Shown: one piece after another, positions 21,601-42,509 of the stretch
How the letters are laid out: each line of letters begins with the position of its first letter
How positions within the stretch are numbered: the stretch's first letter is position 1
Assembly: GCA_951406725.2 (NCBI GenBank)
Contig: OX597838.1
Coordinates: 20,026,001-20,090,000 of the forward strand
DNA: 64,000 bases
DNA from: Octopus vulgaris
Lineage: Eukaryota
Reading direction: 5' to 3'
Notes under the pieces: generated by a model
What the model was told of the DNA's origin: nothing
The model's input: only the letters and a program-made list of their open reading frames with translations
Database searches by the model: none
Made by a program: the position numbers and the translations under genes

Positions 21601-24600
21601 AAGAGTTTCAAAGAAGAGAAAGCAGTGGGTGATTGAGATCTAGCTCTTTTCACTGATGTTCGTTTCTTTGCTGGTCTAAGGACTGGTATAGCCTGACCTG
21701 ACATACATTCATCTATTTGGTCGTCACCATCGTTACCAGCGTTCGTCATACTGTTCATTTCATCAGTTGTCTGGTGAGTTGTACTGTGCATATCAGTTAC
21801 CGTTTGGTTTTTCTTATTTGCTACATTTGAATCAGCAGTGGTTTTGTTGAAATCTTCTTTTCCTCCTCCTTGAATCTTCAACACAGTTTCAGTGAAATGC
21901 TTCCCCCTCTCCTCCTCAACCCCACACTTGGACTCCACAGCTGACTCACTCTTTTTTCCATTGCTGTCAGCTTGCCCTTTATTGTTCGTATCACAATTTG
22001 GGCTGACCGGTGAGTTGCTGTCCTTACTTCCTTTCACAACTTTGCGCAGCATGTCCATCATTTCATCCGATATGTTCAACGACGACACAGCTTTCGCTTG
22101 GCTCAATGTTGTCAGACTCTTCATCCAAATATGAGAAGTGTCGTTTGACGAGTCTTCGTGTCCTTTGTACTCGTAGGCACTAAACAGTTTGCCAGGATCA
22201 GAAGACGATGCTTTTTCCGAACCTTCATCTTTCGCTTCTGATGGAGAAACTGATCCAAAATCTTCATTTAAGGACTGGAAAAGGTTTTTGGCTTTTTCAT
22301 GAGATTTTTGTTGGTGAGACAAGTTTTTCTTATCTGACTCACTCTTACTGGCTTTACCACCATGCATAGAAGGCAGTTTCCAACTTGTTGCATCACAACT
22401 GTCATCATCATCATCATCATCATCATAGCTGTCAAGAGATTTTAACATCTCTTTAATTGGAGAAAGCCGATGATCATTATTATCTGAATGTGTACCGCTA
22501 GCACTTTCATCAATATACAAAGGCTTCGTAAGGTCTTCGTTGGAATTATCACTATCGTCACTATCCGCATTCATGCAGTGTCCGGGTGAGAATGCTCTCA
22601 TGCTACTGTTTCTTTCTGAATTCAATTTGCCCTCACTGCCAGGTTTCTGCTTTGAGACCAAAAGCTTCGAGTCTTCCTCTGACACTGAGTTTGTGTCATC
22701 AGATACAGATTTTCGTGGCAACATCTCTCTATAGAATCCCCAGGTTTTATGATCATTTCCAGGTTCGTTTTGTGGAACAGACTTCACTTTGGCTGGTTCT
22801 TCATTTCTCTCTGGTGAAACTGGAGAATACATTTCCCCTTTCTCAAGTGAAATAGAAGTTGAGGGCTTGAAGCCCTTAATTATTTCTTTAGAAAATTTGG
22901 CATAATCTGGGATGTTATCTTTAGAATGTGGCTTTTCTTCAAAAGAAAGTTTGGGAATTGCAGGAGTTACATCTTTATTAATAGGGATCACCGACAGCTG
23001 TTTAGGTTCATATATGGGTTTTGGTTTATCAACTGAGGTTTGGATGATACACAGATTCCATGGTTTTTTGCTGATAACTGTTTTAGAAGAGCTTGTCATA
23101 TCTTTGCTAATGTGTGCAGATACGTCTTCAATTTCCTCACTGTTGATCTTCACTGGATTATATAAGTCTGCTGGCGATTCCTGTAATAAGAGAGGTTTGC
23201 CAGATTTATTGCCATCGTTTGTTAAAGGATTACTTGACAAATCTCGGTTCATACGCAAAAGTCTTGGATCCCTTGGTAAAGAAGGGTCATGTATTGATTC
23301 CTCTTTCGATGAATGTATATCTTGTGATGCTGGTGGTTGGGAAGGTGGGCCTTTAGAGACAGCCAGAGATAGATTTTTAGCAAGTCGGGGGTCAACAAGA
23401 CCAACTTGTTCCCTAGGGTCTTTCAAAGAAACTGTTACTGAAGTAGGTATAGTTTTAGGGAGAGCAGAAGGTTTTTTAGATAAAGGTTTGTTTTTAGGAA
23501 ATATTTTTGGGTCATCCCTTACAGAAGAGAGTGGCTTGTTGGTTGATGGAATAATTTTAGGGGATTGGGGAATAATTTTGGGAGACTGTGGGGTAGATTT
23601 ATTCAGTTGAGGATTACCTTTCAATAATGGGACTGATTTCTGTAGTGATGGCATTAGCAATGGAGGTAAAGGTGGATTTACAGGTAGTAAAGGTGGAATT
23701 ACAGGTAGTAAAGGGGGTATACTCAACGGCAATATCGGATTCACATTCATTAAGGGAGGAATAGCCTTTTGTATTGGAAGAGGAAGCTTTGGTAGGGGAA
23801 GAGGCATCTTCAGAGGTGGAGGTTCCTTTTGAGAGCCAACCAATCTTGGATCTCGGAAATTAGGTGTAACCAAATTACTGAACAAATTTGGTGGTTCAAT
23901 GTCTTTGGGGGTTTCTAAGAGGAGTTTCTCCGGTTTTGGTTTCTCAAATATTGGTGGCTCCTTTTCTGCTGGGAAGATATCTTGCAATGAATCAAAAACA
24001 TTCATTTTCTCTCGAGGCGGGGATTTGGGTTTTAACCGTTTCTCTTTGTAAGCTTCAAAGGATATGACAGACTTAGGCTTTTTCGGTTCTGTGACAACAA
24101 TAGGAGGTGGCTCAATTATTGAATCAAGAAGGAGGTCAACCTTCAAAGATTGGTCTGTAGCAGGGAAAGTGGAAGGAGTTATTCCAGTGCCTTTAGTCAG
24201 TGGTTCAGCTCGAGGTGTTTTCATGATGCTTTTCGGAACAGTAGTAGCAGTAGTAGTAGTACTAGTAGTGGTACTAGCAGTAGTAGTGGTAGCTTTTGCA
24301 AGGGTACTTGTGTTGCTTTTGCTTTGAAGAGATGATGTTGATGAGAGAGGATGTGTAGATGTGGTTGGTTTTTTGCTGGGAACAGATGTAGTTGATAGTT
24401 TCTTTTCTTTGTCAGGTTTTGAAGTTGTCGAAGTAGAAGAAACCTTTTTATCTATACCAAGTTTCTTTTCCTTCGGAGGACTTTTGCTAGAAAATTTGTC
24501 TTTTGCTACTTTGATTTTCTTTTTGAAAGAATCACCCGAAGAGAGTTTCAATAGTTTGTTGGCTTTTTCACATTTACTGACAAATTTTCTTTTGGCATCA

Positions 24601-27600
24601 TTTTTCAGAGAAGTAATGTCGATTGTCGAACCGAATTCTTCTAAGTCTACCTTAGAAACTGGAGATGGTTTAGAGTGAAATTTTGAAAGTTTGATATTAG
24701 TCGCAGATTCACTTTTACTTGTCATTTGGGAAGTAGCTGAAGAAAGAGATTTTGAAAGTGATTCAGCATTTGATGTCTGTTCTGGAATGTTCAGAGCATT
24801 CATGAGGTCCTGGTGACTTCCAATCCAGTTCATCACATTAGATGTTCCTTCTCTTTTCAAATGACTTGTGATCTAAAATGAAAAAAAAAAAACACATTAC
24901 ACAGTAATTATTTAGAATTAGTGTAGCTTTTAGTTTAGAATGATTAAGTTTAATGTTTGAGGCATTGGATGTAGTGTGCAAGGGAGAACACTGGGCTGGT
25001 ATGGGCGAAGACAGCTGCGTAAAAAAGTGCTGGTCTCTAACTGTGGAGGGGAACCTGTGGAAGAGGTAGACCCAGGAATTTCAACGAAGCAAATGACAAG
25101 TGACCAAGACTTCTGGTGATTTGCTGTGCTTGGGAAGACATGTCAAGCTTAGTGGAAACATAGTCATGGAGAGTGCCAGTGACACATTAAAGGCTTTTGT
25201 GCTGGTGACACATGAAACGCATCCAGTACACTTTGTGGAGTGGTTGATGTTAGGAAGAGTATTGAGACAGAGAAACCTAGAACCTGGTGTGACTCCCCAG
25301 CTTACCAGTTCCAATCAAATTGTAAATTAGCTGAAAAATTATTCTGCATATTGATAATTTAGGTGGTTTGCTACTTTTGGGATACAAACTGGGACCCTGA
25401 CCAACTCTAGCTGGGCCGACTTGGTGAAGTGGATGGATGAGGTGGAGTGGGGAGGCGTTGAAAGAGCAGAAACCCCCGTGAGACCCCAGAAACATCACTG
25501 ATGATGTATCCCAGATCATCCAAGAGATGCATCGTGAAACTAAACAAAACTCAATGTTATAGGGTTAATTAAAGTGGGGAAGCATGTGAAACACCATTTT
25601 CAGTCACTAGCATAGAAAACTAAAAGACTATGATGAGGGCGACTGGGCTATTACCATTATCATGGTGGTGGTCTATGATTGATGGTGGTAGTGATGCTGA
25701 TGACTATGATGGTGTGATGGTAGCACTAGGTCATTGTGATAACAGTGTAATGACTAATAATAAAGATATGATGATGAAGCTTAACAAGGACTAACTGGTG
25801 CTACTCTAGCATGTGGTCTACCACAATATCCATAGTCTATTAGCTGTGAAATGATCTAATCTGGATTAGGTTAAAGGTCAGGTTTAGTATTAGGGTTTCA
25901 GGTTAGGGTCAGGTTTAGAGTGAGGGTTAAGGTTTAGGGTAAGGGTTATGATCAGGCTCATGGCTTAGGGTAATGGTTTAGAGTTAGGGTTAAGGACTGG
26001 GCTAGACGGTATGCTAAAGTGTCAATAGCCAGGTAGACGGTATGCTAAAGTGTCAATAGCCAGGTAGACGGTATGCTAAAGTGTCAATAGCCAGGTAGAC
26101 CGTATGCTAAAATGTCAATAGCCAGGTAGACCGTATGCTAAAGTGTCAATAGCCAGGTAGACCGTATGCTAAAGTGTCAATAGCCAGGTAGACCGTATGC
26201 TAAAGTGTCAATAGCCAGGTAGACCGTATGCTAAAGTGTCAATAGCCAGGTAGACCATATGCTAAAGTGGCACCAACAAACTTTAGTAAACTGGTTCATG
26301 GTTTACAAGCTTGAACATTATTTCTTTAACAAGAGGCATAATATAGAAATACAGCATGAAACTATTGTTATTGTTGCTGTGTGACAAATGGAATTATTTT
26401 ACAAGAAAACAACTGAACACAAACAGGTTAACTCACCTGCTTTATACAATCATTCAGGGCCACAACTGGCTGAAACCGTACTGAGAACATAGCAGATTTC
26501 CAGTCATCATAACCCAATTCTCTCAGTGTTGGCGTTCGCTTCGCAGGTAATTCTTCACCAAATAAAGATTTCTCTTGTTCAAGATATAAATCAGATATTG
26601 GGAAATCTAAATCTAAATATTTGTTGAATTCTGAGAGAAGATTGTTATCTTTTGATGTCATTTTGTCTCCAAATGTACTAGTTGTTGATGCGAGGCTGAT
26701 GTTGTCAAATTCTGATGCTTTTCTCCTCATTTTCTGCCGTTTCCGTCGCCGCCGATAGCCAGTCATATCAAAAGGTGCTTTCTTTTTAAGCAGGCTCCGA
26801 GACGCCATAGAGCACTTTTTCTTTTTGCGCTCACTTGGGGGTAAATACAGACTGTCAGCTTCTGACACACTGGTAGACTCAGAGTTGTCTGGGTCTAACA
26901 ACAGAAGTTCTTTCATCAGCTTTGTATTGACATCATCAATACCAACAGCATCCAGAACAGGAGGAGGTATTTCATCACACAGCATTCCTTCTTGATCTTC
27001 TAGGAGTTTGTGACTCTGAGTATCTTTAATTTGCCTCTTCCGTAGTTTATGAAGGAATGATTTATATTTCTTTTCAAATTCTGAAACCTCAGCCACTTCA
27101 GCCCTGCTGCTAGCAGGTGCCTGGGGCTGCTCCCTGGCTTCAATAGTAGATTCTACGGTATTTAACAATTTTGACAGAGTCTCAGACTGAAGAGCAGTTT
27201 CCTACAAAACAAAATTTGGTCATTAAGCAATTTATATCATTATATTAATGCAATTAACATTAAATAATAGATGAAGATGATTCAGAAATATTTATATGTA
27301 ACTTTTGTCAAACTAAAACTATTTTAAAATTCATAATAAATGAGAAAATGACAAACAAACATTCCAATTTTAAAATATTTTCATAAAAATGTGGCTTTTA
27401 TGGTCCCTTTTTTAAATTAGTTCCCAAAGATACAATCAAATCACAAAATGGATTCTAATTCATTTTGACATCTACTTCCTGTGTATTATGAATTTCTTTC
27501 CATATCACAAAAATGCCAAGTGTGTATTGCACCTATTAAAAAGGAGGCAAATAATTTTGAAATTTCAAAATGTTTTGGCTTTCAGGAGGACGTTAAGTGA

Positions 27601-29620
27601 AGATGATGACTTTAGCTTTAATAATCTTTAAAAAATAATTTAGAGCAATCCCAGAGTTTCCACTTTCATGAGATTGAAATAATTTCATCATAAAAATCCT
27701 CTGTCAGAGCTGTAAAATTTTTTTCTTTTGCCTGTTTGAATTTTGGTAATGAAACAGCTAACTTCAATACTCAATGTAATCCAGCATTCAATGATTTAGT
27801 CCAAACTTGCTGAGAATTACATGGCTGTCACATCATTTAAAATTTGTTCATTTTCATGTTATTAAAAACAACCCCCCACTCACTCAAACAGAAGGAGACA
27901 TCTGATAACGTAGAACAAATGCCTATGATTATAGGTTTGCTCTGGTGGGGCTGACTGGGATCAGTCAACATACACACAGGCCTAGTTAAACAGGCATTAC
28001 TACACAGAACAGTTTGAAGGCAACAGCAATGTACTTACTTCTGTCTGGTCTGCAACAGTTGGTAGCAGTATTGTTGTCTTTAAACCTGTTTTACCAGACA
28101 GGGCTGTGTTTTTTATTTTTGGAGTGACTCTCACCAAAGCGCCCTGAGTTGAATTTGTCAGACCACTCTTGTGTTCTTTTGATGCTTTTAGTTTAGAGTG
28201 CACAACGTCTTTTAGTTTCTTCAGATCCTCCATAGACATTTTGTTCAAAGAAGGTTTCTACAACAGGAAATATTTTTTTTTAAATACTATTTTTTAAAAA
28301 AAATGATCATTTCTAACAAAAGGTACAAGATCACAAATTTGTGAGTTAGAGGAGTACTGGTTCTCAGTGCTTAACAGGTAATTATTGACTGCTTAAAACA
28401 GGCGTCAAGGGACTTTTTTAAGCAATTACCCCAAAATATATTTATTTTCTCTGACATTACCCCACTGATTTGAAAGGAAGAAAATCATAGATTCTTTGAA
28501 TTCAAAAGGCTCATTGACTCTATTTTATTGAATCTATTTACACATCCATTACATTGGACAGATGCAGTGTTGCCAGAAAGAAAATTTCTGTCGTAACAAG
28601 CAACCCGTTTTTTTATATAATTTTACTTATGTCTAATGAGTTCTCATTACCCCCAAGAATTTCATTTTTTACCCTGGTTCACCAACCCCGCTGCCTTAGA
28701 AAAATGAAAAGCAAGGTCAAGCTCAGAGAATTAGTTTAAACAAATGCAAAGGGACTTAACTACAAATCACAAGGCATTTTAGCAGACTCTACTGATTCTG
28801 TCATAACCACCTCTTCCTCACAATGAAATAAAAATTTTGCTTTCTTACTATGAGCAGAGGTTCAAACTTTGTGTTACATTGATTACGTTGTATGACATAA
28901 CTAATAGTCCCATGTTACATAAATGAAATGAAATAACTATCAGCTGTATTTCAAAGCAGGTTGCAGACTTTAATGATAATACTAGCATCAACAATGGTGG
29001 TCAAGTAGAATTGGTTCAAAGTCAGACTTTGGTAGTTTTGACCCTGGCATACTTGAGATCAAACCCTACTCAACATTTACAGGAACGTGGACATTGAGAA
29101 ATGAGAGCAATGAGAATAATGATAAGTGTGATGTTGAGGGAAGAGAAAAAGAAGCCAAAAAAATAGAAGACAGATGAAGAGCGAAATAATGATGAAAGAG
29201 GCACAGGCAGTGACTGTGTGGTAAGAAGTTTACTTCACTACCACAAACCACACAGCTCTGAGTTCAGCCCTGCTGCATACCATGTTGGGTGAATATCTTC
29301 TACTTCAGTCCTGGACCAACCAAAGACTTGTGAGTGGATCTGGTAGATGGAAACTGAAAGAAGCCCATCATTGCCAGTGGCATGTAAAAAAGCACGATCC
29401 GAACGTGGCCGATGCCAGCGCTGCCTTGACTGGCATCCATGTCGGTGACACGTAAAAAGCACCCACTAGACTCATGGAGTGGTTGGCATTAGGAAGGGGA
29501 TCCAGCTGTAGAAACACTGCCAGATCAGACTGGAGCCTGGTGCAGCCCCCTGGCTTCCCAGACCCTGGTCGAACTGTCCAACCCATGCTAGCATGGAAAA
29601 CGGACGTTAAACTACGATGA

Positions 29621-29661
<41 letters not shown>

Positions 29662-32600
29662 GTAAGTGTGTGTATTTGTGTTTCCTTATCTTGACATCAT
29701 GTGACAGTTGTAAATAATTGTCACTGTCATACAAGCAGTGTTGTTCATTTCTGGTATTCCACAAGAACATGTCTCACCATGGGCAAATATTACCTTGCTT
29801 GGAAACAGGTGAGGGTTGGCAACAGAAAGGAAATCTAACTGTAAAAAAAAATCTGTCTCAATAAATTCTTATCTGACCCATGCAAGCATGGAAAAATGCA
29901 TAGTAAATGATGAGGATGATGAGGATGAGGAGGAGGAAACAGAAAAGTGATGAAGAACAAGCTGAAGGTAATTATCACTGTTGTGGTTGTTATTGTTGTG
30001 CTTTAGACAGAAAGAAACCTTTGGAATTAAATACAATAGTAAGAAAAGACTAAAAAATATCAAAGTAAAGATCATACCTTTGTTGATTCTTCAGGTTTTT
30101 TACTCTTTAGTTTTGAAGTTAAAGACTTTTTATTTGATGAAGGTTCAAATGGTTCGTTTTCTTGGGAACTCAACAACTGCATCATCAATTCATGCATGGA
30201 ATTGTCCTGTCCCTTTATGTGACCACTGGGGGAACTCTCAGCCTCCGAGGAACTCTTGCTTGACTTTGGAAATGTTACTGAAGTAACACTATCTGATGTT
30301 TTGCTGGAGCCTTTCTTGAACAGTTCTGATTCGAACAGATTTTTGGAGGCAGATACTGAAGCCTTCAGAAGGCTCTTCACAGAAGATTTCTTTGGCATAT
30401 CAGTGTGATGTAGAGACGGCTCTTTCTTAACTGTCGGTAATCTATCTAGAAGATCCTGTACACTCTTCTCTGTTAGTTCTATTTCAGAGCTTTTCTTTTC
30501 ACCGATTTTCGTTTCAGTAGTGGAACCGGCTGGTTTTTTCTTGTTTAAAGCAAATGGTATTGGCTTTCTAGTTTTAGCATTACTGCCACCACCACTATTA
30601 CTACTACTACTACTATTACTAATAGCAGTAGTAGTGGTAGTGATTGTAGTAGTATTTGAAGTGTCACCAATAGAATTCATGGTGCCTATGTTGGTAAATG
30701 CTGTGCCAGAACCACCTGATATTTTATTATCACAGTTGTTTAGGTAGCTATTCCTCCAGTCCTTATTCTCAAAAAACTCGGACCCACTTGCATGCCATTC
30801 AATGTTTGCAGGTTTATTCTGGGAATTTCCTTCATACTGATTGAGATTCATGTTTAAGGCAACTTCTTCTTCGTTATGCTTCCATGGATGTTGGTCCCCT
30901 AAGCACTGAGGATCAACTTCATTCTGCAACAAGGGTCGACTGTATGGAAGTGGATACCAATTCATCTGGTCAGTTGGTTCATTGCTGTATCCAGGCATTG
31001 GGTTTGGTTGACCCCAAATATGGCTGACGTCCATTTTAATGTCATCGGTGTAAAACTGGGGCTTGAACTGTCCATTGTTTTCCATAGAAAAACTGGGATT
31101 ATCTACAGGAGGTGGGCAATGTTCTGCATCTAAAGGAATTTGATCTTGACGACATTTCATTCTTGGATCTGATCCAGATCTTTGAACTAAGACTTTCTGA
31201 GAGATATCAGGAAGAGGTGGCTGTGGCCCATATCCTAGGAATAAACTTGCTAGCATTCTACATTGCTCATTTGCAGTGTCTTGAGGAAAAACATTTTGAA
31301 GCATATGGTCCCTGTCTGATAAGCCTGGACCTAACAGAGGCGGTCGTATTCCTGGAAGCATTCGAATGTTAGGCTCGAGGTTATTTGGGACATTTTTAAA
31401 GGGGACTGGATGACGAGGTCCTTTTTTCCAATCGCTTTTCTCATCAGATTTTTTGCTAGGGGGAGGACCTTTAGTTGGATCGTAGATATAAATAGATTTT
31501 GAAAGTGATCCAGGTGTAATAGTATCTGCTTTTCGTTCGTAGGTTATCACAGCATAAGGAAGACAGTGTCGAGGGCGAGGTGCGGGCATTCCCTCATCAT
31601 CATATTCATACAAGTATATCTGAAATGGTAATGAAGAGTGACATTTATTTCGGAGAAAAGTGAAGGAGCTCAAGTTATTATAAACCTCATCTTTAGAGAT
31701 GAAATTTTTTTTCACAATGTATACTCTTTTACTCGTTTCAGTCATTTGACTGTGGCCATGCTGGAGCACCGCCTTTAGTCGAGCAAATCGACCCCGAGAC
31801 TTATTCTTTGTAAGCCCAGTACTTATTCTATCGGTCTCTTTTGCCGAACCGCTAAGTGACAGGGACGTAAACACACCAGCATCGGTTGTCAAGCAATGCT
31901 AGGGGGGACAAACACAGACACACAAACACACGCATACATATATATATATATATATATATACATATATATACGACAGGCTTCTTTCAGTTTCCGTCTACCA
32001 AATCCACTCACAAGGCATTGGTCGGCCCGGGGCTATAGCAGAAGACACTTGCCCAAGATGCCACGCAGTGGGATTGAACCCAGAACCATGTGGTTGGTAA
32101 ACAAGCTACTTACCACACAGCCACTCCTGCGCCTAATGTATGATATTTGCACAAAAAATAAGTTTTGTTTGATGTATTTAGTTTTAGCATTTCTTTTCAC
32201 AATGTTGCTACCACTTGCAAGCTCCAAGTCTTTACTGATTTTTCATTAAATGACTGAAGTCTTATTCATGGATGTGGACTTCCAGAGTCCCAGACAAAGT
32301 TTTTGACTAACAATGATAATGTATGCTTACAAAATCTAATAAACAATAATTCATTTAAAAGACTCAGACATTTACAACTAAAAAGGATTAGAATAGTACA
32401 GAGACAACTACAGATTACAGCTAAGAGGGAGTTAATCTAATTAGCACATCTATTAAATATTGTCAATAACTAAATATGATTTCAGTGTTAATTCTCTCAT
32501 TGTCTATACACTTTACATTAAGTAGCTATCTTTGATACTCCTACGTCTGTTTGTACTCACATTACTGTGACCTTTGGGCAAATAAATGACATGGACACAC

Positions 32601-35600
32601 CAGTTAAAATCAGATACAGTTACACTCATTCATACATTAAAAACGTACATTTATAAACCCAGTCTAATGTTACTTATAACCACAGATTATATCTGACGCA
32701 AAAACTACTTTCCATTCCATTCAACCGTTGTTGATGCCCCCATTGAATGAACAGCTCAGCATTAGACTGGTTCTAGGCCTACCTGTCCACAATGACCAAT
32801 TATGGGTTATACAAGTAACTCTTGACGTCAAGTTCTGACTATCACCACTTAGGAGAATTTGAACACAGACTAAAAAGAGTAAGGACCTTTCTGCAAGTCA
32901 TCTCATGCAATATAAATAATTTTGCTAATCCACTGCCCAGCACTGGGACTTCGTTTTATCAACCCTAAACGGATGTAAAGCAAAGCTAACCTCAGCAGTG
33001 TTTTGAACTCAACAGTGCAGAGAGCCAGGACAAACATTGCATGCCATTCTATCCGATGCACTAATGATGCACTCAGTTCACTGCCTTCAATAACCAACAC
33101 TCTACACTGATCATTGACACAATAATTTACAGTGTAGGACTAGTCTGACAACAATTTATACTGGATACCTAGCCCATTGCTTACATCAACAGAACTTATT
33201 GCAAAATAATTTGTTCAACAGCTGTTGTCTCAAAACAATTTTCACTAGAAGTCTAGGTCTAAGCCATTATCATCATCATTTAACATCTGTCTTCCATGCT
33301 GTCATGGGTTGACAGTTTGACAAGAGATGGCAACCCAGAGGACGGTGCCAAGCTCTATTGTTTGTTTTGGCATGGTTTCTACCGCTGAACACCTTTCTTA
33401 ATCCACCCCCAAGACAATTTATATTTCAGCTCCAGATCCAATCGTTTCAAAACAATTTATATGAGAGATCTAGCTTCTGACAACAAAAATTTACAAAGAT
33501 CCTTTATTAAACTGAAATATTTGCGACTTTAAGTTTTTACAACCATCGTCCTATGGACGATTCATGCAACAACATGTGAAGAAAGCCAGAAAAATCCACA
33601 AACCTGTGAACGTTGCATTTGAATGATATGAATATCTGAGAGTTGAGGTGGTTGAAGTCCCACATGGCAGTCATAGTTTGGTGTGGGTTCAATACTAGAC
33701 ATCAGTCGTTCGTTTACAGGTTTACATTTACCCGTTAATACCTAAAATGTAATAGATGAAAAAAAAATCAACATATCAATACATATGAAAATATATGGTA
33801 ACACATGTGTGATGATAGACAGGCAGATACAAAGTGTGATGGGATGAGGGAGTGGAAAGGAGAAGGGTTTCACTTATGTAAAAAAAGATTATTATAAGTT
33901 ACCAACAGCATAATATCATACAGAACAGAAGATATCAACTACTTGGTGTATCATTTTATTAGGAGGTTGCCATAAACCAGTTCAAAGAAGGCTTTTATTC
34001 AAACGTTATTTCTGCTCGCAATCTAATCCGTTAATTACTGCTGTTCAACGATTAAGACGCATTGTTTTATATTAAATAAAGATAGTATCCATCTATCAAC
34101 GTCATTTGACATTAAGCCGCATGTTTGTACTCAATACAAAATAAGGTAAAGGCGGCGAGCTGGCAGAAACGTTAGCACACCAGGCAAAATGCGTTATGGT
34201 ATTTCGTCCACTACTGTGTCCTGAGTTCAAATTCCGCCGAGGTCAACTTTGCCGTTCATCCTTTCGGGGTCGATAAATTAAGTACCAGTTACACACTGGG
34301 GTCGATGTAATCGACTTAATCTGTTTGTCTATCCTTGTTTGTCCCCTCTATGTTTAGCCCCTTGTGGGCAATAAAGAAATAACAAAATAAGATATCGATA
34401 TTTTTATGTATTATTTATCATTGTAGAAAGGAATTAATGATAGGATATTACAATTCATAACAGAGGTAGTCAACATGATCAATTTAATCTATTGGCATCA
34501 ACATTGCTATTCATCAATTGGTCCCAATGGATAGACGAAAAATAAAAGTAAAGAATAAAATGTGTAAACTTACATTAAATACAAAAAGTGCAGTTGTTAA
34601 CTGATTTGAAATGGTTTCAACCGTCTGCAAACTGACATCTGCATGCTTGGACAAATACACACCAGAATTATGATCTCCTGTTAATAGATTTGAAGCGAAG
34701 TTGTGACAACAATAACAATATCAATTAAACACAGAACATGGTACCAAAAATATGCCGACCTTCCAGAATGTCAAAACATGTTGGACTTTCATGTTGGAAA
34801 CTATATAATAGGTTAATGAGAGAATGGGTGGTTACACACTAAATTTCTATAGCAGCTTCAGATCCTAAGTTATTGATTTGGGAGAGAAGCTGGGTTCAGC
34901 AAATAACAAATCTTGAAACAGTCTGTCAAGAGACTCCCCCAACTCATTTTTCTTACTTTACTCAGAACCAGGCTTCGTAATATTTAAATTTATTTCAGTT
35001 CTTCTGATTAATGCTCTGCCATGCTTGAAATATATGTATTGCTTCATTAATGATGAGCTGTGAAAAGTACAGATATACAAATTAGGCTATTCACTAATGT
35101 GCTAGCTTAATTTATGATTGCTATATATATAACAAATGTAGAGGCGCGTGGCTTAGTGGTTAGGGTGTTGAACTCATGACCGTAAGGTTGTGGTTTCGAT
35201 TCCTGGACCGGGCGATGCATTGTGTTCTTGAGCAAAACACTTCATGTCACGTTGCTCCAGTCCACTCAGCTGGCAAAAGTGAGTAATCCTGCAATGGACT
35301 GGCACCCCGTCCAGGTGGAAAGTTTCTACGCCACTGAAACTGGGAAACCGACCCTTATGAGCCTGGCATGGCTCGAGAAGGAACATTTATTTATTTATAT
35401 ATAACAAATGAAGATTCTATGCCATTTATTGGGGGGAGAAGTTGGTACGTGTTGTCTGAGGAACAATCACTTTAGTAAAACTAAATATCAAAGAACATTA
35501 TCTAAACTGTGTATCATAATATATTATCAACCTCAAAGAGATAAAAAGTAAAATCAACTTTAGCATGATTTGAATGCATAGTCTTGCAAGCAGCATGGTG

Positions 35601-38600
35601 ACCTCAACAGTTCTGGTGGTATGTAAAAAGCACCCAGTAAACATGGTAAAGTGGTTGGTATTAGGAAGGGCATCCAGCCATAAAAACTGTGCTAAAGTAG
35701 ATACTGGAGCATGATACAGTCCTTGGATTCACTGGATTCTGTCAAACCATCTAATCCATTACGGAGATGTACTTGCATAGCAAGTGACCTGATCTGAGAT
35801 CGTGTGCTGGAACGAAAACAATTCCAGCACAGAATTTTGTCAGTGAACAGGTCGCAGCCTCAAAGCAAAGAAAATATTTTGGCAAATTAAATTTAAATGT
35901 TGAAGTGAATCTAACGGTTTTTGTGTATTTTCTTAAATGGCTTATAAACACCTTCCATGCTGCAATTGTCATCTAATCCATATTAGCATGGAACGTGGAC
36001 GTTAAATGATGATGATGATGAAGGCAAAATATGTAACGATATATTTAACTTACCAATGATACTAAATGGCAGATTATTGGTTGTTAAACCATTTTTGGCT
36101 ATCTTTGGAACATAGGAAGGGTCTCTGATCGCATAAAATGCAATTTGATCACTAAGCTCACGGTTATGTCGACCTTCTTCTTTTAATTCAGTACGCTTGC
36201 TTCTGTAAAAGTAGAATTAAATTACATTTGAGAAAAAACAAAAAGAAAATGTGAGTTAATGAAGAAATTTTCTTTAATAAATTTTAATTAAGGTAACTAG
36301 AGCTTTACAGTTTCAAAATAGAAACACTACCATTATGAACCAAGAAGGTTAACAACAACAAAAAATTTCAACTGAGAAAACCTAGAAAGGTTTTGTTGCT
36401 CTTTATCAGTTTAACATTCTTTGATGAATGCTTTTGAAACCAACCTGCTTGCAACCATCCTTGGTTCTATGATATAAATTCCTGCTTGACTAATTTTACT
36501 AAATTTTTTACTATTTTCAAAATTACTTGAAACAAAATCCGTGTATTTAAGCAGAAAGATTAATCCCTAACCCGGCAAAGATGAGTTGTCTTCACCTAAT
36601 TTGTCTTTTTCAGAGTGCGATGAGTAAACCTGTCCAAAACATATAATTTCAAAAACAGCCACAGACAATTTTATATGTCAATCAGCGGTTTTACTCTTTT
36701 ACTTGTTTCAGTCATTTGACTGCGGCCATGCTGGAGCACCGCCTTTAATCGAGCCCAGGACTTATTCTTTTTGTAAGCCCAGTACTTATTCTATTGGTCA
36801 CTTTTGCCGAACCGCTAAGTAACGGAGACATAAACACACCAGCATTGGTTGTCAAGCAATGCTAGGGGGACAAACACACATACGCATATATATATATATA
36901 CGATGGGCTTCTTTTCAGTTTCCGTCTACCAAATCCACTCACAAGGCTTTGGTCAGCCCGAGGCTATAGTAGAAGACACTTGCCCAAGGTGCCACGCAGT
37001 GGGACTGAACCCAGAACCATGTGGTTGGTAAGCAAGCTACTTACCACACAGCCACCACTGCTTCTATTTATTTTATTTTATTTTTTCTAACAAATTATGC
37101 CCAGATGTTGAGCTGAGAAGATGACAGTGAGTATGAACCTTCTATTAGAAGCTTGGATACATCAGATGAGAGTGCAAGCTCGTCTGATAATGGCTATTCT
37201 CTCTCAAGTGAGGAGGATAGATGAATTTGGTGCTGGAAGAATGCATGCTTCTTCCACCACCATGCTTCCCATTCACTAGAAATCTTGGAATATCAATTAA
37301 TCAAGGCACAGCTGGTATGATTTCTTTGGATTTTTTTAGTATTTTTTGTGACGAGAAAATTATTGATCAAGTTGTGCACATAACTATTTTATTGACATTT
37401 ACTTTTGGTTATGAAAATTGAAAACAAAATAAATAAATATATATATATAAAAAAAGAGTTTTGAGAAGGCATGCTAAAAAAAAGAGTAAAATAAATGTGT
37501 AATTCCCCATTACTTTTGATGATAAAGTTGGATAATAAAAAGCAATCAGTAAAAAATATTTTTAAAATACGGGAAGACGAGTTATCTTGTTTTTGCCAAA
37601 AAATGGCATCTTCAAAATAAAATTTCAAATAAAATATTGGAAATAGATAAAAACAAAAGTTATTTCCATAATCAGCACTAAAAATACTATTAGAAAAAGC
37701 AATAAAAAAATTCGTCTGAAATTGAAATGTTTTCTACAAAAAAAGTCGCTGGAGAAGGGGTTAAACGTGCAGTTGTCTGAACAAACATATTTGTCTGGTC
37801 AAACACATGGTGATCTAAGTATATTCGTCTCAAACACTTGTCTAATGAAATACATCTGTCTGATTAAACACATCTATCTAACACACGTCTGACTAAACAG
37901 ACTTGTCTCTCTTGACTTTAGCAATGTTACAGCTAAGCTTTTCATGAAATTATAAACAGTTATTTTACACAGAGAACTATTTAGTGTTCTTCCAAAATAC
38001 AAGAAGTACAAATTTTAGTAAAAACACAATACAGCTACGATAAAATAGAGAGGCAAATGTCTTTAACGAGCCTACAATCTTATATAATCTTTCTGATTAG
38101 ATGTGTGTGTGTGCATGCATAAGTTCAAGTCATTATAACATGACATTACATTTCAACAGGCAAACAATTGTCATTATGATTAAGTTGAAAGTTTTAATTT
38201 CACTAATCATCTAATTCTTGATTATTTTAAAAGTCAAAACACAAAATGATTGATCTAGTGTTTTATCATGTCTATTACCAACTCAAAATATATAAGCCGA
38301 TGCTTTCTTAAACCTATTTCATTGTGAATATTTATCTAATGCAAATGATTGAAAGAGAAATTAAAATTCCCCTGAAGTTCTTTTGCCTTAAGTAAAATCA
38401 AATGCTTTTTTACAGATCTATAAATAATAATAAAAGGTAAAATATATTTTTTTTTTTAAATACTAAAGTATGCTCAAACCTATAGTCTTGTTCCAGTTCT
38501 GTATTTCGGACTGAGTGAATCGCTTGAATCTGCCAAGGCCCACAATAATTTTGGTCAAGGTAGGACCGAGTAACGTTTGCAAGTATTTCTTTTGCATCTC

Positions 38601-41167
38601 GGCTCTTTGGGTCAATTTCAAGCAAATTGTCTGAAACATAAAAATAGACCAACTTGTACCTGGCTGTATGTGAATATGTGTAAGTGTATGCATGTAAATG
38701 TATACATATATACACACTCACATCTGGGTGTTCAAACAAGAGAAAAAAATACTTGATATACATAACAGACTTTCTTCCTTCAAACAAATAAATCATATAC
38801 ATAAAACAAAACAAGTATAAATACAAAGATGCAAACAAGAATAAAAGCTTAAAGATTTTATTTTGAGAACTTTATGTTCATTCAATAATAAATCTCTGAG
38901 CAAGTTATAAACAGCAGCTGCAACACATTGTGAAGTACTTTTGCCACTTAAATGTGGCTAACCCCTAAGGGTGGATGCAAGCTACAGTAACATCCACCCT
39001 TAGGGGTTAGCCAGATTTAAGTGGCAAAAATACTTCACTATGTTCATTCAGTTCTCGATCTATTAAGCCACATTGCCTTTAGCATTCAGAGCACACTGAA
39101 TTTACAAATTTTGACTCCAGGGATACCAACTGAGACCATTCTTCCATGTAACAGATTAAGCTGGCATCACAACTGTGGCAAGCAACTGGTGCTCATGGAA
39201 GATTTTGTACAAATTGCCAGAGTAATTCCTTTCATGCTGATTCACCTGAGACCAGTTCTGGTTCTACAATGCAAATCCTCACTTTTCTAAATCAGTCGTA
39301 TTTAAATTTTAATCTTCTAACATGTAAGAATCTTTTGTTTAACAATGCACTGGGGTCAATATAATCAACTTACTCTCTCCCCGAAATTGCTGGCTTTGTG
39401 CCAAAATATGAAAACAATACATGTGCCAAACATTTGTTTAATCCTTTCAATACTGTATTTATTTTGAGATGCTCAGTGTTTCTTTCAATTAATTTTTTAA
39501 ATATAACAAAGAATTTAGTAAAATAACTTAGTTATCATTAAGCTAGTGTTAGGAACATAAATTGTGACTAAGGTTTGGTGGAAGATTTTAATTCAAAACT
39601 TATGAAAACAAGACATTTGTACTCAGAGCCAAAGCCTGTTTCAGCCGGGTTCGTAACGAAAGGGTTAATAATAGTTATTTTACTACCTTCTTTATTATTT
39701 CTGAAAATCAACTGAAAAAGGTGTTTTTTGAGAAAAATATAGCAACAAAAGAGTTAATGATGAGCAAGCCAATTATTAAAAAAAAATGTTTTAATGAATC
39801 AGATACAGCAACGAATCAATGCTTTGTGAGGTGAGTGACTCATTTAAAGCTGTTACAAAATCACATGATCAAGTATTTCATGCTCCTTACACATTACTTT
39901 ATGTTTGCTGTCGAAGCACAAAGAGACAGAATCCCTTTGTTGGCAACAACTCTTTAAATTGTTACTATATTGTTTAATTTAGCTACTATACTGCTACTAC
40001 AACTGACTCTAATACTAATTAGTCAGTTAGGTAACCTAGCTACTGACTATGTGATCAAAACTACTGTTTCCAGTACTGATTAAGTAACCTGGGTAACAGA
40101 ACAAAGAATTATGGAGCCAAAGAGAGTCTAGATAGTAGCTTGACCTACTAGAGATAGCAATGAAATTTGTTTCATGCCAGAGCTGAACTTATATGAAAAT
40201 GCAAACAAGGATGGGCATTTTGGACAAAATAGTCAAGTTAAACTATATCTGAAAAGATAGTATGGCTACAACTAGATCATAAGTTTTCTCCAATCAAGGA
40301 TTAAACAACAACACAAAAATCATTCATTCATTTTATGACTGGTTTTCCATTTGAGCATGGGGTAGAGAGGAAGTTATTTGGAGCAGAATTTTACAGCTGG
40401 GTGCTCTTCCTGTTGCCAACCCTTACTTGTTTTACAGATAAGGGATGTTTCGTATTCACAAGCAAATTAGTCATGTCAACAACAAGGATTGTAAACAGGC
40501 GTGGCTGTGTGATAAGAAGCTTGCTTCTCAACCACAGGGTTCTGGGTTCAGTCCCACTGCATGGCACCTTGGGCTAGTGTGTTCTCCCACAGCCTTTGGT
40601 CAATCAAAGCTTTGAGAGTGGATTTGGTACAAGGAAACTGAATGAAGCCTATCGTGTGTGTGTATGTGTCCTTGTGCCTGTGTTTCTCCCTATCACTGCT
40701 TGACAACTGGTGTTGGTGTGTTTATGTCCCCATAATTTAGCAATTTGGAAAAAGAGACCAATAGAGTAAGTACAAGGCTTAAAAAAAGTTGGTTAAGAAA
40801 TCCTTCAAGGTGATGCCCCAGCATGGCCACAGTCTAATGACTGAAACAAGTAAAAGATCATATCACTGTTTTGCTTAGGCAATGACAAGCCATAAGATGT
40901 GAATATTGATGCATACACACAAACAAACATATAATGGGCTTCCATGCAGTTTCCACACAAATTCACTCATAGAGTATTGGTTAACTTAAGATGCCTTACA
41001 TTGAGGCTGAACCTTAAACCACATGATTGCAAACCAAACCTCTTAACCACACAACCATGCCTTTGCCCTTGATCATAATAATGACTGCTGCCACATTGTG
41101 TCAGAATATACCAAAATATTAAACTAGTTTTCAGATTCTAAACTCAGCAACTGTAGTTGCAATTTTA

Positions 41168-41206
<39 letters not shown>

Positions 41207-42509
41207 GAAAAGAATGCAACAGATTAAAAATTTCAGATTTTATCTTGTAAACTTACATATTTTGCCAACTTTAAAACTTTAATCAGAACAAATTATTTAT
41301 AAATATATGCATAACATTTTAAAGAATTTTTGAAATTAAACACACACAGTAACTAGAATTCCATAAAATGAATACAGAAAGTAAAGGTAGAATATTGGTT
41401 TCAAATTTTGGCACAGGGCCAGCTTTTTCAGGGAAGGGATTAGACAGCTATTTCGGGAGGGATGGGGGAGCTATCCAGCTATTTTGAGGGAGGGGGCTAT
41501 CCAGCTATTTCAGGGGAGGGGCTATCCAGCTATTTCGAGGGAGGGGCTAAGTTGATCACATCAACCCCAGTGATCAACAGGTACTTATTTCTTCAACCTT
41601 GAAAGGATGAAAGGCAAAGTCAACCTTGGTTGAATTTGAACACAAAATGTAAAGACAGACGAAATACTACTATGCATTTTGCCCAGTGTGCTAACAATTC
41701 TGCCAGCTCGCTGCCTCGTAAAAGTAGGATATTAATAATATAAATAAATGCTATTTGCATATGTGTGTATTTATCAATCTCACTGTATTTACTAGACTGT
41801 CAGGTATTGTTATACATTGTTAGTCACAATACATGGCCTTTCATTGTCACAGATTTCAAATGATGCCACTTTGCTGGCCAATGTTCCCACTGAATGGAAT
41901 GCTAGTCCATCACGGCATTGCCCATTTATGCCAGAGTAAACTAGAGCAATGTGAAATTATATGTTTTACTCAAAAACACAATGCACCACTGGTCTGGGGA
42001 TTGGAACCACAATCTTGCAATCAATATGTGTAACACCCTAACCACTATGCCATCTGCCTTCAAACACACACACACACACACAGCTGTGTGATAATGAAGT
42101 TCACTTCATAACAATGTGGTTTCAAGTTTTATCCCATGCATGGCACTTTGAGCAAATACCTTCAACTATAGTCTTCGAAAGAGCAATGCCTTGTAGGGAA
42201 ATTGGTAAATGGAAACTGTACAGAAGCCTACTGAATGTGTGTGTGTGCGTGTGTTTGAACGTTTATTTCCATGTGTCTTTGCAATTTATTGTTCATGTTA
42301 TATGAACATCTGTAAACAATATACCATTGGGCAGTTTTGGCATGTGAGGTTCATGCTGAGACAGAGGTGGGGAGAGAGCATGTAAAAACGAAATTAAGAA
42401 TGAAACAAGGCACACAAAAATAATTAAACAAAATCTTTGTATGTTTACCTTTTGTAGCTTGACGTTTTAACTTTGGTATGTTAAAATTAAAGGTCTGTGA
42501 GGTTTCCAT
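13819..42509 (-). CDS. DUF3715 (pseudo-PARP) domain protein of the TEX15/TASOR family; 11 coding exons, 10512 nt, ~3503 aa
   Basis: Exons 42509-42449, 38630-38480, 36202-36054, 34677-34574, 33741-33604, 31619-30078, 28257-28039, 27201-26437, 24872-17664, 16132-16054 and 13913-13819 all have GT-AG ends and compatible phases. The N-terminus shows the DUF3715 motifs in order: FNIPK, SYLD, NTELE, KRTELKEEGRHNREL, GVYLSKHAD, PTPNYDCHV, YLYEYD, RPRHCLPYAVITY. Confidence 0.9.
14385..14590 (-). mobile_element. Dispersed ~200 bp repeat with a decayed hammerhead-like core (Penelope LTR or retrozyme-like)
   Basis: Homologous to 59865-60053; adjoins (TA)n. Confidence 0.55.
15419..15580 (+). mobile_element. 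SINE family A, 5' half
   Basis: TGGCTGTGTGGTAAG...GGTTCAGTCCC...GAAAGAAGCCC followed by (TG)n. Confidence 0.8.
16054..16132 (-). CDS. DUF3715 gene coding exon 10 (predicted)
   Basis: 79 nt, phase 0-1; pyrimidine tract plus AAG acceptor, CAG/GTTTGT donor; ENKDCNALPPPPLVPNSQLSMGMTSS. Confidence 0.65.
16333..16452. repeat. Inverted repeat, 45 bp arms (2 mismatches), 30 bp spacer
   Basis: 16333-16377 is the reverse complement of 16408-16452. Confidence 0.92.
17259..17530. repeat. Compound (TA/CA)n microsatellite
   Basis: Alternating purine-pyrimidine tract of TACA/CACA/TATA units. Confidence 0.9.
17664..24872 (-). CDS. DUF3715 gene coding exon 9 (giant 7209 nt exon)
   Basis: Uninterrupted 2403-codon frame (ORF 17259..24860); poly-T plus TAG acceptor at 24875-24873; donor GTAAGC after STVKNIL. 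Confidence 0.93.
24955..25320 (+). mobile_element. RTE-type LINE 3' remnant (ORF end plus UTR)
   Basis: GWYG...EDSCVKKCWSLTVEG...GRGRPR-like peptide, followed by a diverged copy of the tail family seen at 106-361. Confidence 0.65.
25796..26275. mobile_element. Non-autonomous TIR element with (TTAGGG)-like interior and tandemly amplified right end
   Basis: 25797-25822 versus reverse complement of 26249-26274 match at 23/26; degenerate GGTTAG hexamers at 25865-25995. Confidence 0.65.
26003..26269. repeat. 31 bp minisatellite, ~8.6 copies
   Basis: Unit TAGAC(G/C)GTATGCTAAAGTGTCAATAGCCAGG starting at 26003, 26034, ... 26251. Confidence 0.95.
26437..27201 (-). CDS. DUF3715 gene coding exon 8
   Basis: 765 nt, phase 0-0; ETALQSETLSKLLNTV...QPVVALNDCIKQ; basic NLS-like clusters (RKKKK, RRRRKRQK); donor GTGAGT. 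Confidence 0.9.
28039..28257 (-). CDS. DUF3715 gene coding exon 7
   Basis: 219 nt, phase 0-0; KPSLNKMSMEDLKKLKDVV...ADQTE; donor GTAAGT. Confidence 0.85.
29199..29622 (+). mobile_element. SINE family A head joined directly to the (GAT)n-tailed retroposon end
   Basis: Head/CORE at 29199-29366, then GCCAGTGGCATGTAAAAAAGCAC...GATGATGAT. Confidence 0.7.
30078..31619 (-). CDS. DUF3715 gene coding exon 6 (end of DUF3715, then low-complexity region)
   Basis: 1542 nt inside ORF 30072..31892; CAG acceptor at 31622-31620; begins IYLYEYDDEGMPAPRPRHCLPYAVITY; donor GTATGA after ESTK. Confidence 0.92.
31722..32133 (-). mobile_element. SINE family A, full length
   Basis: Near-identical to other copies; possible AATGTA target duplication (31716-31721, 32135-32140). 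Confidence 0.9.
33604..33741 (-). CDS. DUF3715 gene coding exon 5
   Basis: 138 nt, phase 0-0; VLTGKCKPVNERLMSSIEPTPNYDCHVGLQPPQLSDIHIIQMQRSQ. Confidence 0.92.
34149..34381 (+). mobile_element. SINE family B, full length with target-site duplication
   Basis: GGCGGCGAGCTGGCAGAAACG head, GAGTTCAAATTCC B box; ACAAAATAAG at 34136-34145 and 34382-34391. Confidence 0.88.
34574..34677 (-). CDS. DUF3715 gene coding exon 4
   Basis: 104 nt, phase 1-0; (G)DHNSGVYLSKHADVSLQTVETISNQLTTALFVFN; donor GTAAGT. Confidence 0.92.
35142..35395 (+). mobile_element. SINE family C, full length with 15 bp target-site duplication
   Basis: TGGCTTAGTGG A box, GGTTTCGATTCC B box, V-domain-like GCAATGGACTGGCACCCCGTCCAGG; TATATATAACAAATG at 35124-35138 and 35396-35410. 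Confidence 0.88.
36054..36202 (-). CDS. DUF3715 gene coding exon 3
   Basis: 149 nt, phase 2-1; SKRTELKEEGRHNRELSDQIAFYAIRDPSYVPKIAKNGLTTNNLPFSII; donor GTAAGT. Confidence 0.92.
36560..37764 (+). mobile_element. Internally deleted piggyBac element carrying a family A SINE (36690-37054, -)
   Basis: TTAA at both ends with degenerate CCC/GGG termini; peptide PPCFPFTRNLGISI...LDFFSIFCDEKIIDQVVHIT (37250-37385) resembles the N-terminal region of piggyBac transposases. Confidence 0.6.
37770..37910. repeat. Degenerate short-unit (~15-20 bp) tandem repeat
   Basis: Recurring TGTCTG..AAACACAT-like unit. Confidence 0.5.
38480..38630 (-). CDS. DUF3715 gene coding exon 2
   Basis: 151 nt, phase 1-2; NLLEIDPKSRDAKEILANVTRSYLDQNYCGPWQIQAIHSVRNTELEQDY. 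Confidence 0.9.
38930..39038. repeat. Inverted repeat, 48 bp arms (2 mismatches), 13 bp loop
   Basis: 38930-38977 is the reverse complement of 38991-39038. Confidence 0.93.
40498..40858 (+). mobile_element. SINE family A, diverged copy
   Basis: Head, CORE and GACTGAAACAAGTAAAAGA tail are recognisable; another deleted copy at 49190-49445. Confidence 0.8.
41397..41716 (-). mobile_element. SINE family B with an internal ~26 bp G-rich tandem expansion (41445-41550)
   Basis: Four CAGCTATTT..GGG.GGGGCTA-type units inside the tail region. Confidence 0.75.
42449..42509 (-). CDS. DUF3715 gene coding exon 1 (start codon)
   Basis: METSQTFNFNIPKLKRQATK plus 1 nt; in-frame TAA just upstream of the ATG; acceptor AG at 42524-42523 implies an upstream non-coding exon; donor GTAAAC. 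FxIPK/R motif is typical of the DUF3715 N-terminus. Confidence 0.82.

What the first reader, a model, noticed from the sequence alone, without database searches (positions are those of the whole stretch)
31530..42509. Cephalopod DUF3715 domain looks closer to TEX15 than to TASOR and appears catalytically dead
Seen: FNIPKLKR, PWQI, GRHNREL, VLTGKCK, PTPNYDCHV, PQLSD, YEYD...PRHCLPYAV. From recall, these match vertebrate TEX15 (FTIPK, SWQF, GRHSREL, VLFGKVK, PSPNFDCHM, PRQCLPYA) better than TASOR, and no SPOC-like domain follows. The PARP His and Glu positions appear replaced (AFY and QIYLY). Established: TEX15 is a nuclear piRNA-pathway effector generally described from vertebrates. Inference: a TEX15-type lineage, and possibly its pathway, exists in molluscs.
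Basis: partly seen in the sequence, partly recalled or inferred. Interest (0 to 1): 0.7.

Follow-up and report, generated by a model that had tools for sequence, protein, structure and literature searches.

The report
Octopus cousin of silencing factor TEX15
This intact octopus gene encodes a 3,500-residue protein whose PARP-like domain lacks the catalytic residues and groups with the vertebrate transposon-silencing factor TEX15 rather than with TASOR, so molluscs likely kept an old TEX15-type silencing scaffold, though probably not the mouse DNA-methylation pathway.

Summary
Observation confirmed. The motifs lie in exons 1-6 of an intact 11-exon minus-strand gene (42509-13819, 3,503 aa, 3,477 residues identical to Octopus sinensis LOC115224504). 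Transcript-like contigs show exons 3-6 spliced. The DUF3715 triad reads Y94-Y128-Q201, so it is predicted dead, but that holds for the whole family and is not news. No SPOC or TEX15 domain follows. In a 68-row ML tree all SPOC-bearing proteins, including mollusc and sponge TASOR-likes, split from all SPOC-less ones (100/100); Octopus lies on the SPOC-less side with vertebrate TEX15. Descent from mollusc TASOR-likes (p=0.0005) and a vertebrate-only birth of TEX15 from TASOR (p=0.005) are rejected. New here: a mollusc-wide architecture with two short motifs and a well-folded 180-residue helical C-terminal domain of no known family. Nine genome searches found no TASOR-like gene in this octopus (weak negative). 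The mouse piRNA-methylation pathway is unlikely: octopus transposons are reported unmethylated. A 2026 preprint already calls cnidarian SPOC-less genes truncated Tex15.

The parts
42449..42509 (-). Coding exon 1 (aa 1-20): start ATG and the F-x-I-P-K motif in front of the domain
   Evidence: identical to P0004
38480..38630 (-). Coding exon 2 (aa 21-71): first helix and W53 strand of the pseudo-PARP domain
   Evidence: AG/GT ends; identical to P0004
36054..36202 (-). Coding exon 3 (aa 71-121): holds Y94 at the PARP His position (codon starts 36135)
   Evidence: spliced in run X1 record 1
34574..34677 (-).
   Evidence: spliced in run X1 record 1
33604..33741 (-). Coding exon 5 (aa 156-201): PTPNYDCH stretch, M197 (place of TASOR's Tyr295 plug) and Q201 at the PARP Glu position
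   Evidence: spliced in runs X1 and X5
30078..31619 (-). Coding exon 6 (aa 202-715): 15-residue beta8-beta9 loop Y205-H219 with Y207 (TASOR Y305), end of the domain, then low-complexity sequence where TASOR has SPOC
28039..28257 (-). Coding exon 7 (aa 716-788)
26437..27201 (-). Coding exon 8 (aa 789-1043): two basic clusters (possible nuclear localisation signals, inferred) and most of a short mollusc-conserved motif (P0004 aa ~1010-1045)
17664..24872 (-). Coding exon 9, 7,209 nt (aa 1044-3446): long low-complexity region, a second short conserved motif (P0004 aa ~2218-2234) and the C-terminal domain
17664..18200 (-). Mollusc-conserved ~180-aa helical C-terminal domain (P0004 aa 3264-3441), no Pfam family, no convincing fold match
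   Evidence: (pLDDT 95.2)
16054..16132 (-). Coding exon 10 (aa 3447-3473)
13819..13913 (-). Coding exon 11 (aa 3473-3503) and TGA stop

Best explanation
This is an intact, spliced octopus gene for a 3,503-residue protein with an N-terminal DUF3715 pseudo-PARP domain from the SPOC-less branch that likely also gave vertebrate TEX15, and it likely works as a non-enzymatic nuclear scaffold that helps silence transcribed repeats through repressive histone marks rather than DNA methylation. Shown: gene structure, splicing of exons 3-6, domain identity, triad Y-Y-Q, no detectable SPOC or TEX15 domain, position on the SPOC-less side of the tree, three mollusc-conserved blocks outside the domain. Inferred from TASOR and TEX15: no NAD+ chemistry; the extended beta8-beta9 loop with Y207 is the working surface; the long low-complexity middle is a flexible arm; the two short motifs and the helical C-terminal domain bind mollusc-specific partners in place of TEX15's own domains. 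Least certain: what brings it to targets (a nuclear Piwil1/Piwil2-piRNA complex is my first guess, an RNA-binding HUSH-like adaptor the second) and which loci it acts on.
For: Gene: 11 exons, 10,512 nt, one frame, 3,477 of 3,503 aa identical to P0004; run X1 record 1 carries exons 3, 4, 5, 6 at consecutive positions with the introns skipped, run X5 record 17 joins exons 5 and 6 (2 of 4 runs show joins among the listed pieces; the tool calls these runs RNA only by guess). Domain. Dead site: Y94, Y128, Q201 against H-Y-E (alignment to 6TL1; TASOR's L-Y-Q from PMC7955679 table passage; TASOR shown not to bind benzamide or ADP-ribosylate, PMC7532188 passages). Working loop kept: 15 residues Y205-H219 versus 14 in TASOR and 5 in PARPs, with Y207 at TASOR Y305, whose mutation abolishes silencing. 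Lineage: FastTree on 150 rows splits 65 SPOC-side from 85 SPOC-less rows at 99; IQ-TREE LG+C20 on 68 rows gives 100/100; the split matches SPOC presence, which was not used to build the tree. Molluscs have both kinds (TASOR-likes in Mytilus, Mizuhopecten, Biomphalaria, Nucella), so this is an old paralogue pair. AU tests reject Octopus group + mollusc TASOR-likes (p 0.0005) and TEX15 + vertebrate TASOR (p 0.005). MAD rooting prefers the SPOC branch (0.157 versus 0.164 next). 20 of 20 rows of the Octopus group and 22 of 22 other SPOC-less invertebrate rows score higher on the TEX15 than on the vertebrate TASOR profile, against 1 of 28 TASOR-likes. CLPYA: 33 of 43 TEX15, 11 of 20 Octopus group, 0 of 65 SPOC side. 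Of 15 columns that tell TEX15 from the SPOC side, Octopus has the TEX15 state at 7, the SPOC state at 2. Function by family: fish and human TEX15 DUF3715 domains replace TASOR's in LINE1 silencing (PMC10578480, results read). Octopus has H3K9me3 and a SETDB1 orthologue, and unmethylated transposons (PMC9476566 passages); molluscs have Piwil1 and Piwil2 in soma and germline (PMC6128900 passages).
Against: No functional data of any kind for this protein. The tree is unrooted: the MAD margin is 4%, and a non-reversible-model root test was uninformative (the placements printed lay within about 1.5 log-likelihood units). The free tree groups all SPOC-less invertebrates (95/80), amphioxus and echinoderms included, apart from vertebrate TEX15, against the species tree; alternatives are merely not rejected (deuterostome clade p 0.20; TEX15 + Octopus group p 0.31; Octopus group next to the SPOC branch p 0.31). 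Mean identity differs little: 32.0% to TEX15, 29.5% to TASOR-likes, 28.0% to vertebrate TASOR. Q201 is shared with TASOR (37 of 37, 27 of 28) and with 0 of 43 TEX15 rows; the 15-residue loop also occurs in 7 of 28 TASOR-likes, so some likeness to TEX15 is ancestral. Nothing outside DUF3715 is shared with TEX15. Only the best 150 of 523 hits were seen; no named cnidarian or non-animal row was in the tree.
Confidence: 0.5

Rival explanations
1. It belongs to a third, invertebrate-only DUF3715 lineage as old as TEX15 and TASOR; it resembles TEX15 only because both keep ancestral residues and lack SPOC.
For: SPOC-less invertebrates, amphioxus included, form one side of a branch without TEX15 (95/80); the root is not fixed; profile scores on TEX15 and on invertebrate TASOR-likes are equal (199 versus 197 bits); no shared domain beyond DUF3715.
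Against: That branch is short (0.13) and is not required by the data. TEX15 did not arise from vertebrate TASOR (p 0.005) and the SPOC side includes a sponge, so this reading needs TEX15's own lineage lost in every invertebrate sampled.
Confidence: 0.2
2. The lineage is TEX15-type, but the job is not repeat silencing: a meiotic or DNA-break role, or one-of-many choice in large gene families.
For: Tex15 loss tracks Prdm9 loss in vertebrates (bioRxiv 10.64898/2026.09.07.749791 passages); mouse TEX15 also controls odorant-receptor diversity outside the germline (bioRxiv 10.64898/2026.05.27.728302, listing and passages). Octopus protocadherin and zinc-finger expansions are recalled, not checked here.
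Against: Both characterised DUF3715 proteins silence transcription; gene-family choice may be the same repressive mechanism on other targets; no tissue data were obtained.
Confidence: 0.18
3. It is a working TEX15 equivalent in a mouse-like nuclear piRNA pathway that directs DNA methylation of transposons.
For: Position on the TEX15 side; size and disorder like TEX15; molluscs have PIWI genes; Nautilus has DNMT3 (PMC12532940 passages).
Against: TEX15 domains not detected; Piwil4, Spocd1 and C19orf84 are reported as vertebrate genes; 5mC is reported absent from octopus transposons in brain and hatchling samples (germ cells are not among the samples named there).
Confidence: 0.08
4. It is the octopus TASOR-like gene, which has lost its SPOC domain.
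For: No other TASOR-like gene was found in this genome; Q201 is the TASOR state.
Against: 100/100 split from the SPOC side; grouping with mollusc TASOR-likes rejected (p 0.0005); its true orthologues sit beside separate TASOR-likes in the same genus (Mytilus edulis P0006 and P0092) and share its C-terminal domain.
Confidence: 0.03

Closest known systems
Vertebrate TEX15 (DUF3715/RDTS + one or two TEX15 domains, PF15326)
   Same: N-terminal DUF3715 on the same side of the SPOC split; no SPOC; about 3,000 aa or more, mostly low complexity; CLPYA, W53, L137 and a 15-residue loop shared; dead triad.
   Different: No TEX15 domain; own C-terminal helical domain and two short motifs; Gln rather than Leu/Ser at the Glu position; germline restriction and PIWI binding untested.
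TASOR and invertebrate TASOR-like proteins (HUSH core; DUF3715-SPOC-DomI)
   Same: Same pseudo-PARP fold (6TL1: E 1.1e-24 by sequence; best Foldseek hit); Tyr retained, Gln at the Glu position; loop tyrosine equal to Y305 kept.
   Different: No SPOC-DomI, alpha/beta or PIN domain; other side of a 100/100 split; molluscs carry separate TASOR-like genes.
Cnidarian 'truncated Tex15 homologs' (bioRxiv 10.64898/2026.09.07.749791)
   Same: Invertebrate DUF3715 assigned to the TEX15 type and lacking TEX15 domains, reported in 21 of 28 cnidarians.
   Different: Assigned there by profile score, not by a tree in the sections I read; molluscs not mentioned (0 occurrences of mollusc, octopus, cephalopod); the octopus protein is longer than TEX15, not truncated. 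Their sequences were not in my tree.
PARP13/ZAP pseudo-PARP
   Same: Tyr in place of the triad His (ZAP Y-Y-V; octopus Y-Y-Q); weak sequence match E 0.26.
   Different: No CCCH or WWE domain; extended beta8-beta9 loop; separate family.

Membership tests
DUF3715/RDTS pseudo-PARP family | Match to PF12509 above the curated cut-off | tested here: met
   87.8 bits, cut-off 28.5
DUF3715/RDTS pseudo-PARP family | PARP fold with degenerate H-Y-E triad | tested here: met
   Y94-Y128-Q201 by alignment to 6TL1; low-confidence model (pLDDT 56) hits 6TL1 then PARP10
DUF3715/RDTS pseudo-PARP family | Extended beta8-beta9 loop with the Y305-equivalent aromatic residue | tested here: met
   15 residues, Y207
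DUF3715/RDTS pseudo-PARP family | No NAD+ binding; supports transposon silencing | not testable with these tools
   needs assay and domain swap
TEX15 (as defined by Schopp et al. 2023) | One or two TEX15 domains (PF15326) after DUF3715 | tested here: not met
   No Pfam hit at E<=10 while P0009 scores 263 bits; local TEX15 profiles give no hit in P0004; HHalign of the C-terminal domain to TEX15 blocks, probability <=0.3%
TEX15 (as defined by Schopp et al. 2023) | DUF3715 on the TEX15 side of the TEX15/TASOR split | tested here: met
   100/100; unrooted
TEX15 (as defined by Schopp et al. 2023) | One-to-one orthology with vertebrate TEX15 | tested here: inconclusive
   p-AU 0.31 and 0.20; root unresolved; several SPOC-less paralogues in bivalves, Owenia and amphioxus
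TEX15 (as defined by Schopp et al. 2023) | Germline expression, nuclear, bound to PIWI | not testable with these tools
   run list carries no tissue
TASOR / TASOR-like | SPOC-DomI directly after DUF3715 | tested here: not met
TASOR / TASOR-like | DUF3715 groups with SPOC-bearing proteins | tested here: not met
Active PARP/ART | His and Glu (or Ile) of the NAD+ site | tested here: not met
   Y94 and Q201

The most novel reading that the evidence does not exclude
TEX15 is not a vertebrate invention: its lineage is at least bilaterian, and in molluscs it became a giant scaffold with its own new helical domain. Octopus has lost the TASOR/HUSH branch that other molluscs keep, leaving this protein as its only RDTS-domain silencer, in charge of both transposon control and its expanded long-exon gene families without DNA methylation.
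Probability: 0.15. Interest if true: 0.8.

Novelty: new variant of a known kind. Interest (0 to 1): 0.5.

Why it matters
The standing view is that TASOR-like proteins are pan-animal and TEX15 is vertebrate-specific (PMC10578480). That statement rests on domain architecture. The domain tree says the TEX15 branch has invertebrate members, and this gene shows what one looks like: a long scaffold with different partner-binding modules. It gives a direct test of what the ancestral RDTS protein did before piRNA-directed DNA methylation existed, using a published domain-swap assay. If octopus also lacks TASOR, it is a natural case of a transposon-rich genome, with unmethylated repeats, that relies on the TEX15 branch alone.

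Tried and rejected
Extra DUF3715 hits in the own genome (L002, L003; L025, L026) are low-complexity or stop-ridden chance matches; L027 and L028 (E>=0.88, with stops) were not examined. Search for a TASOR-like gene in G000: 9 searches, none returned such a locus. Two of them returned the window's own gene as best hit at 31-39% identity, and a bivalve orthologue used as control found 4 of its exons; but searches did not even find the paralogue, one search ran with a stricter filter, and mollusc TASOR-likes are only 30-49% identical between lineages, so this is 'not found with these queries', not absence. The SPOC family search hit three loci; none matches the TASOR-side profile; that they look like RBM15, SPEN and DIDO/PHF3 is from recall. 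C-terminal domain: Foldseek no match at E<=0.001; VIA-align best Z 8.2 over 49-59 residues, generic helical hairpins; Atlas feature hits to BAR domains at 0.86 or less with under 170 shared features, a lead only; none accepted. Rooting with octopus PARP exons was dropped as too fragmentary; the non-reversible root test had no power. Third homologue search with a diverse alignment returned only 4 proteins. A metagenome scan for non-animal members could not be run with that alignment. Expression: no listed holder is on record as RNA and no tissue is given, so nothing is claimed on gonad expression; the junctions of exons 1-2 and 7-11 were not checked against reads and rest on splice signals, the open frame and P0004. 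The N-terminal AlphaFold model is poor (pLDDT 56, four sequences), so pocket closure was not judged from it. Supplements of PMC10578480 and of the preprints, and all figures, could not be seen; Fig. 2B of PMC10578480 may already contain mollusc SPOC-less sequences. Earlier findings of the scan: none.
Full report
The observation. They are exons 1-6 of one gene of 11 coding exons, 42509 to 13819, 10,512 nt with GT-AG introns and one stop at the end, 3,503 aa. 3,477 residues are identical to P0004, NCBI's uncharacterised LOC115224504 of Octopus sinensis, 3,496 aa. A 6,057-nt contig of run X1 carries exons 3, 4, 5 and 6 at consecutive positions, and a contig of run X5 joins exons 5 and 6 (2 of the 4 runs laid show joins among the listed pieces). 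The gene is therefore intact and spliced; tissues are unknown.

The domain. Pfam gives DUF3715 at aa 76-222 (E 9.3e-25) and nothing else credible in the whole protein. The best solved relative is the TASOR pseudo-PARP 6TL1 (E 1.1e-24, aa 26-233), then ZAP at E 0.26; a low-confidence model finds 6TL1 and then PARP10 by fold. With TASOR's triad L-Y-Q (PMC7955679, table passage) the octopus triad is Y94-Y128-Q201. It is predicted dead. This is the family norm: of 150 rows, 2 have His at the His column and 1 has Glu at the Glu column, and TASOR is shown to be non-catalytic (PMC7532188, passages). The feature that TASOR needs, the extended beta8-beta9 loop with Y305, is kept: 15 residues, Y207. TASOR's Tyr295 plug is Met197.

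Relatives. A profile of four mollusc domains found 523 proteins at E<=0.001; I saw the best 150. With four earlier hits this made 154; similarity outside the domain sorted them into a SPOC group (59), a TEX15 group (35), a mollusc group with Octopus (19) and smaller sets. Thirty were named by look-up and eight by homologue searches (one protein in both sets). The labels 'vertebrate TEX15' (43 rows) and 'vertebrate TASOR' (37 rows) are mine, from linkage to a named lizard TEX15, Pfam domains on samples and tree position. Of 28 rows I call invertebrate TASOR-like only 5 are named (Mytilus, Mizuhopecten, Biomphalaria, Nucella, the sponge Sycon); a few others may be TASOR2 or jawless-fish genes.

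The tree. FastTree on 150 rows (4 short ones left out) separates 65 SPOC-side from 85 SPOC-less rows at 99. IQ-TREE with LG+C20 on 68 rows that I picked to span the clades, leaving out most of the longest branches, gives the same split at 100/100. A profile of the region after the domain scores all 59 SPOC-group proteins at >=68.6 bits, clearly hits 2 further rows that the tree puts on that side, and none on the other. Octopus lies in a 97/97 group of molluscs plus the annelid Owenia on the SPOC-less side, with vertebrate TEX15, two amphioxus genes, echinoderm genes, a second bivalve paralogue and a second Owenia gene. AU tests reject the Octopus group joined to mollusc TASOR-likes (p 0.0005) and TEX15 joined to vertebrate TASOR (p 0.005). 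They do not settle order within the SPOC-less side (p 0.31, 0.20, 0.31), and the free tree sets all SPOC-less invertebrates apart from TEX15 on a short branch (95/80). MAD rooting prefers the SPOC branch by a thin margin and a non-reversible model has no power. Since a sponge is on the SPOC side, any root inside the SPOC-less side needs many losses (inference). I put the chance that Octopus and TEX15 share a lineage to the exclusion of TASOR at about 0.75, and one-to-one orthology well below that.

How TEX15-like the sequence is. Octopus scores 199 bits on the TEX15 profile, 146 on vertebrate TASOR and 197 on invertebrate TASOR-likes; mean identities are 32.0, 28.0 and 29.5%. CLPYA (33 of 43 versus 0 of 65) and W[QE][FIVL] (15 of 43 versus 0 of 65) do discriminate. 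Q201 sides with TASOR.

The rest of the protein. It is low in complexity from aa ~240 to ~3260, with basic clusters at aa 912 and 937 of P0004. Three blocks are conserved among molluscs only: a motif near aa 1010-1045 (13 distinct proteins), one near 2218-2234 (10 distinct proteins at E<1e-6), and a C-terminal domain of ~180 aa (16 seed proteins and isoforms or a close relative, no hit in TEX15, TASOR or other invertebrate rows at E<0.2). AlphaFold folds it with pLDDT 95 into five long helices and a small insert. No family or fold match is convincing, and it does not align with TEX15 domains. By the architecture definition of Schopp et al. this is not TEX15; it is a variant on the TEX15 branch.

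The genome. Nine searches found no TASOR-like gene in G000, although bivalves and gastropods have one. Two TASOR-like queries picked up this gene as their best hit, which speaks for some sensitivity, but two others found nothing at all; this is a lead, not a result (details under Tried and rejected).

How it likely works. TASOR's and TEX15's domains are interchangeable in LINE1 silencing (PMC10578480; abstract, introduction, results and part of methods read). I infer a nuclear scaffold whose dead PARP surface does the same unknown step on nascent transcripts, with mollusc-specific partners on the short motifs and the C-terminal domain. The output is more likely H3K9me3 than DNA methylation: octopus has H3K9me3 and SETDB1 but unmethylated transposons (PMC9476566, passages and section 6), and the mouse partners PIWIL4, SPOCD1 and C19ORF84 are reported as vertebrate genes (PMC7618676, passages). 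Molluscs have Piwil1 and Piwil2 (PMC6128900, passages), so piRNA guidance is possible but untested. HUSH targets long-exon gene clusters such as protocadherins (PMC7619638, passages) and mouse TEX15 acts on odorant receptors (bioRxiv 10.64898/2026.05.27.728302, listing and passages), so gene-family control is a live alternative.

What is in print. Schopp et al. state that TEX15 is vertebrate-specific by architecture and that the TEX15 and TASOR-like domains split early; their tree has invertebrate clades that I could not see. A 2026 preprint classes DUF3715-only genes of 21 of 28 cnidarians as truncated Tex15 (passages and methods section 24). A search for TEX15 with octopus found 0 papers; searches listed none on a mollusc TEX15-type gene (top 15-20 rows seen in each). 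The idea of invertebrate TEX15-type domains is thus partly in print; the mollusc architecture, the C-terminal domain and the possible loss of TASOR in octopus were not found there.

Verdict. A real, intact gene; a new variant of the RDTS pseudo-PARP family on the TEX15 side; lineage well supported, orthology and pathway not. Interest 0.5.

Noticed in passing
P0022 and P0024 (Branchiostoma group, SPOC-less side): The only 2 of 150 rows with His at the PARP His column; P0022 also has His at the triad Tyr column. P0117, on the SPOC side, is the only row with Glu at the Glu column.
   Followed up: no
P0005/P0006/P0010, P0058/P0085, P0092/P0098: Bivalves appear to carry three DUF3715 genes: the Octopus type, a second SPOC-less paralogue and a TASOR-like; Owenia and amphioxus have two SPOC-less genes each, Babylonia two copies of the Octopus type.
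   Followed up: partly
G000, whole genome: No TASOR-like (DUF3715-SPOC) gene found in nine searches, and no match to the second SPOC-less paralogue turned up in the DUF3715 searches; possible loss in octopus.
   Followed up: partly
window 24872-17664 (-): A single coding exon of 7,209 nt, one open frame of 2,403 codons; long exons are the feature by which HUSH picks targets in mammals.
   Followed up: no
window about 31720-32140, 34160-34380, 36690-37050; ORFs 1389-2165, 9640-10095, 10476-10844: Very high-copy repeat in the introns (contig depths above 100,000); the listed ORFs are frames over similar repeat sequence, not genes.
   Followed up: partly
P0073 (Sycon ciliatum): A sponge protein on the SPOC side of the tree, which dates the TASOR-like architecture to before eumetazoans.
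   Followed up: partly
P0049 (unnamed, 751 aa): Deepest branch of the TEX15 group, with a partial TEX15 domain directly after DUF3715 (aa 252-303); possibly a jawless-fish transcript, useful for future rooting.
   Followed up: no
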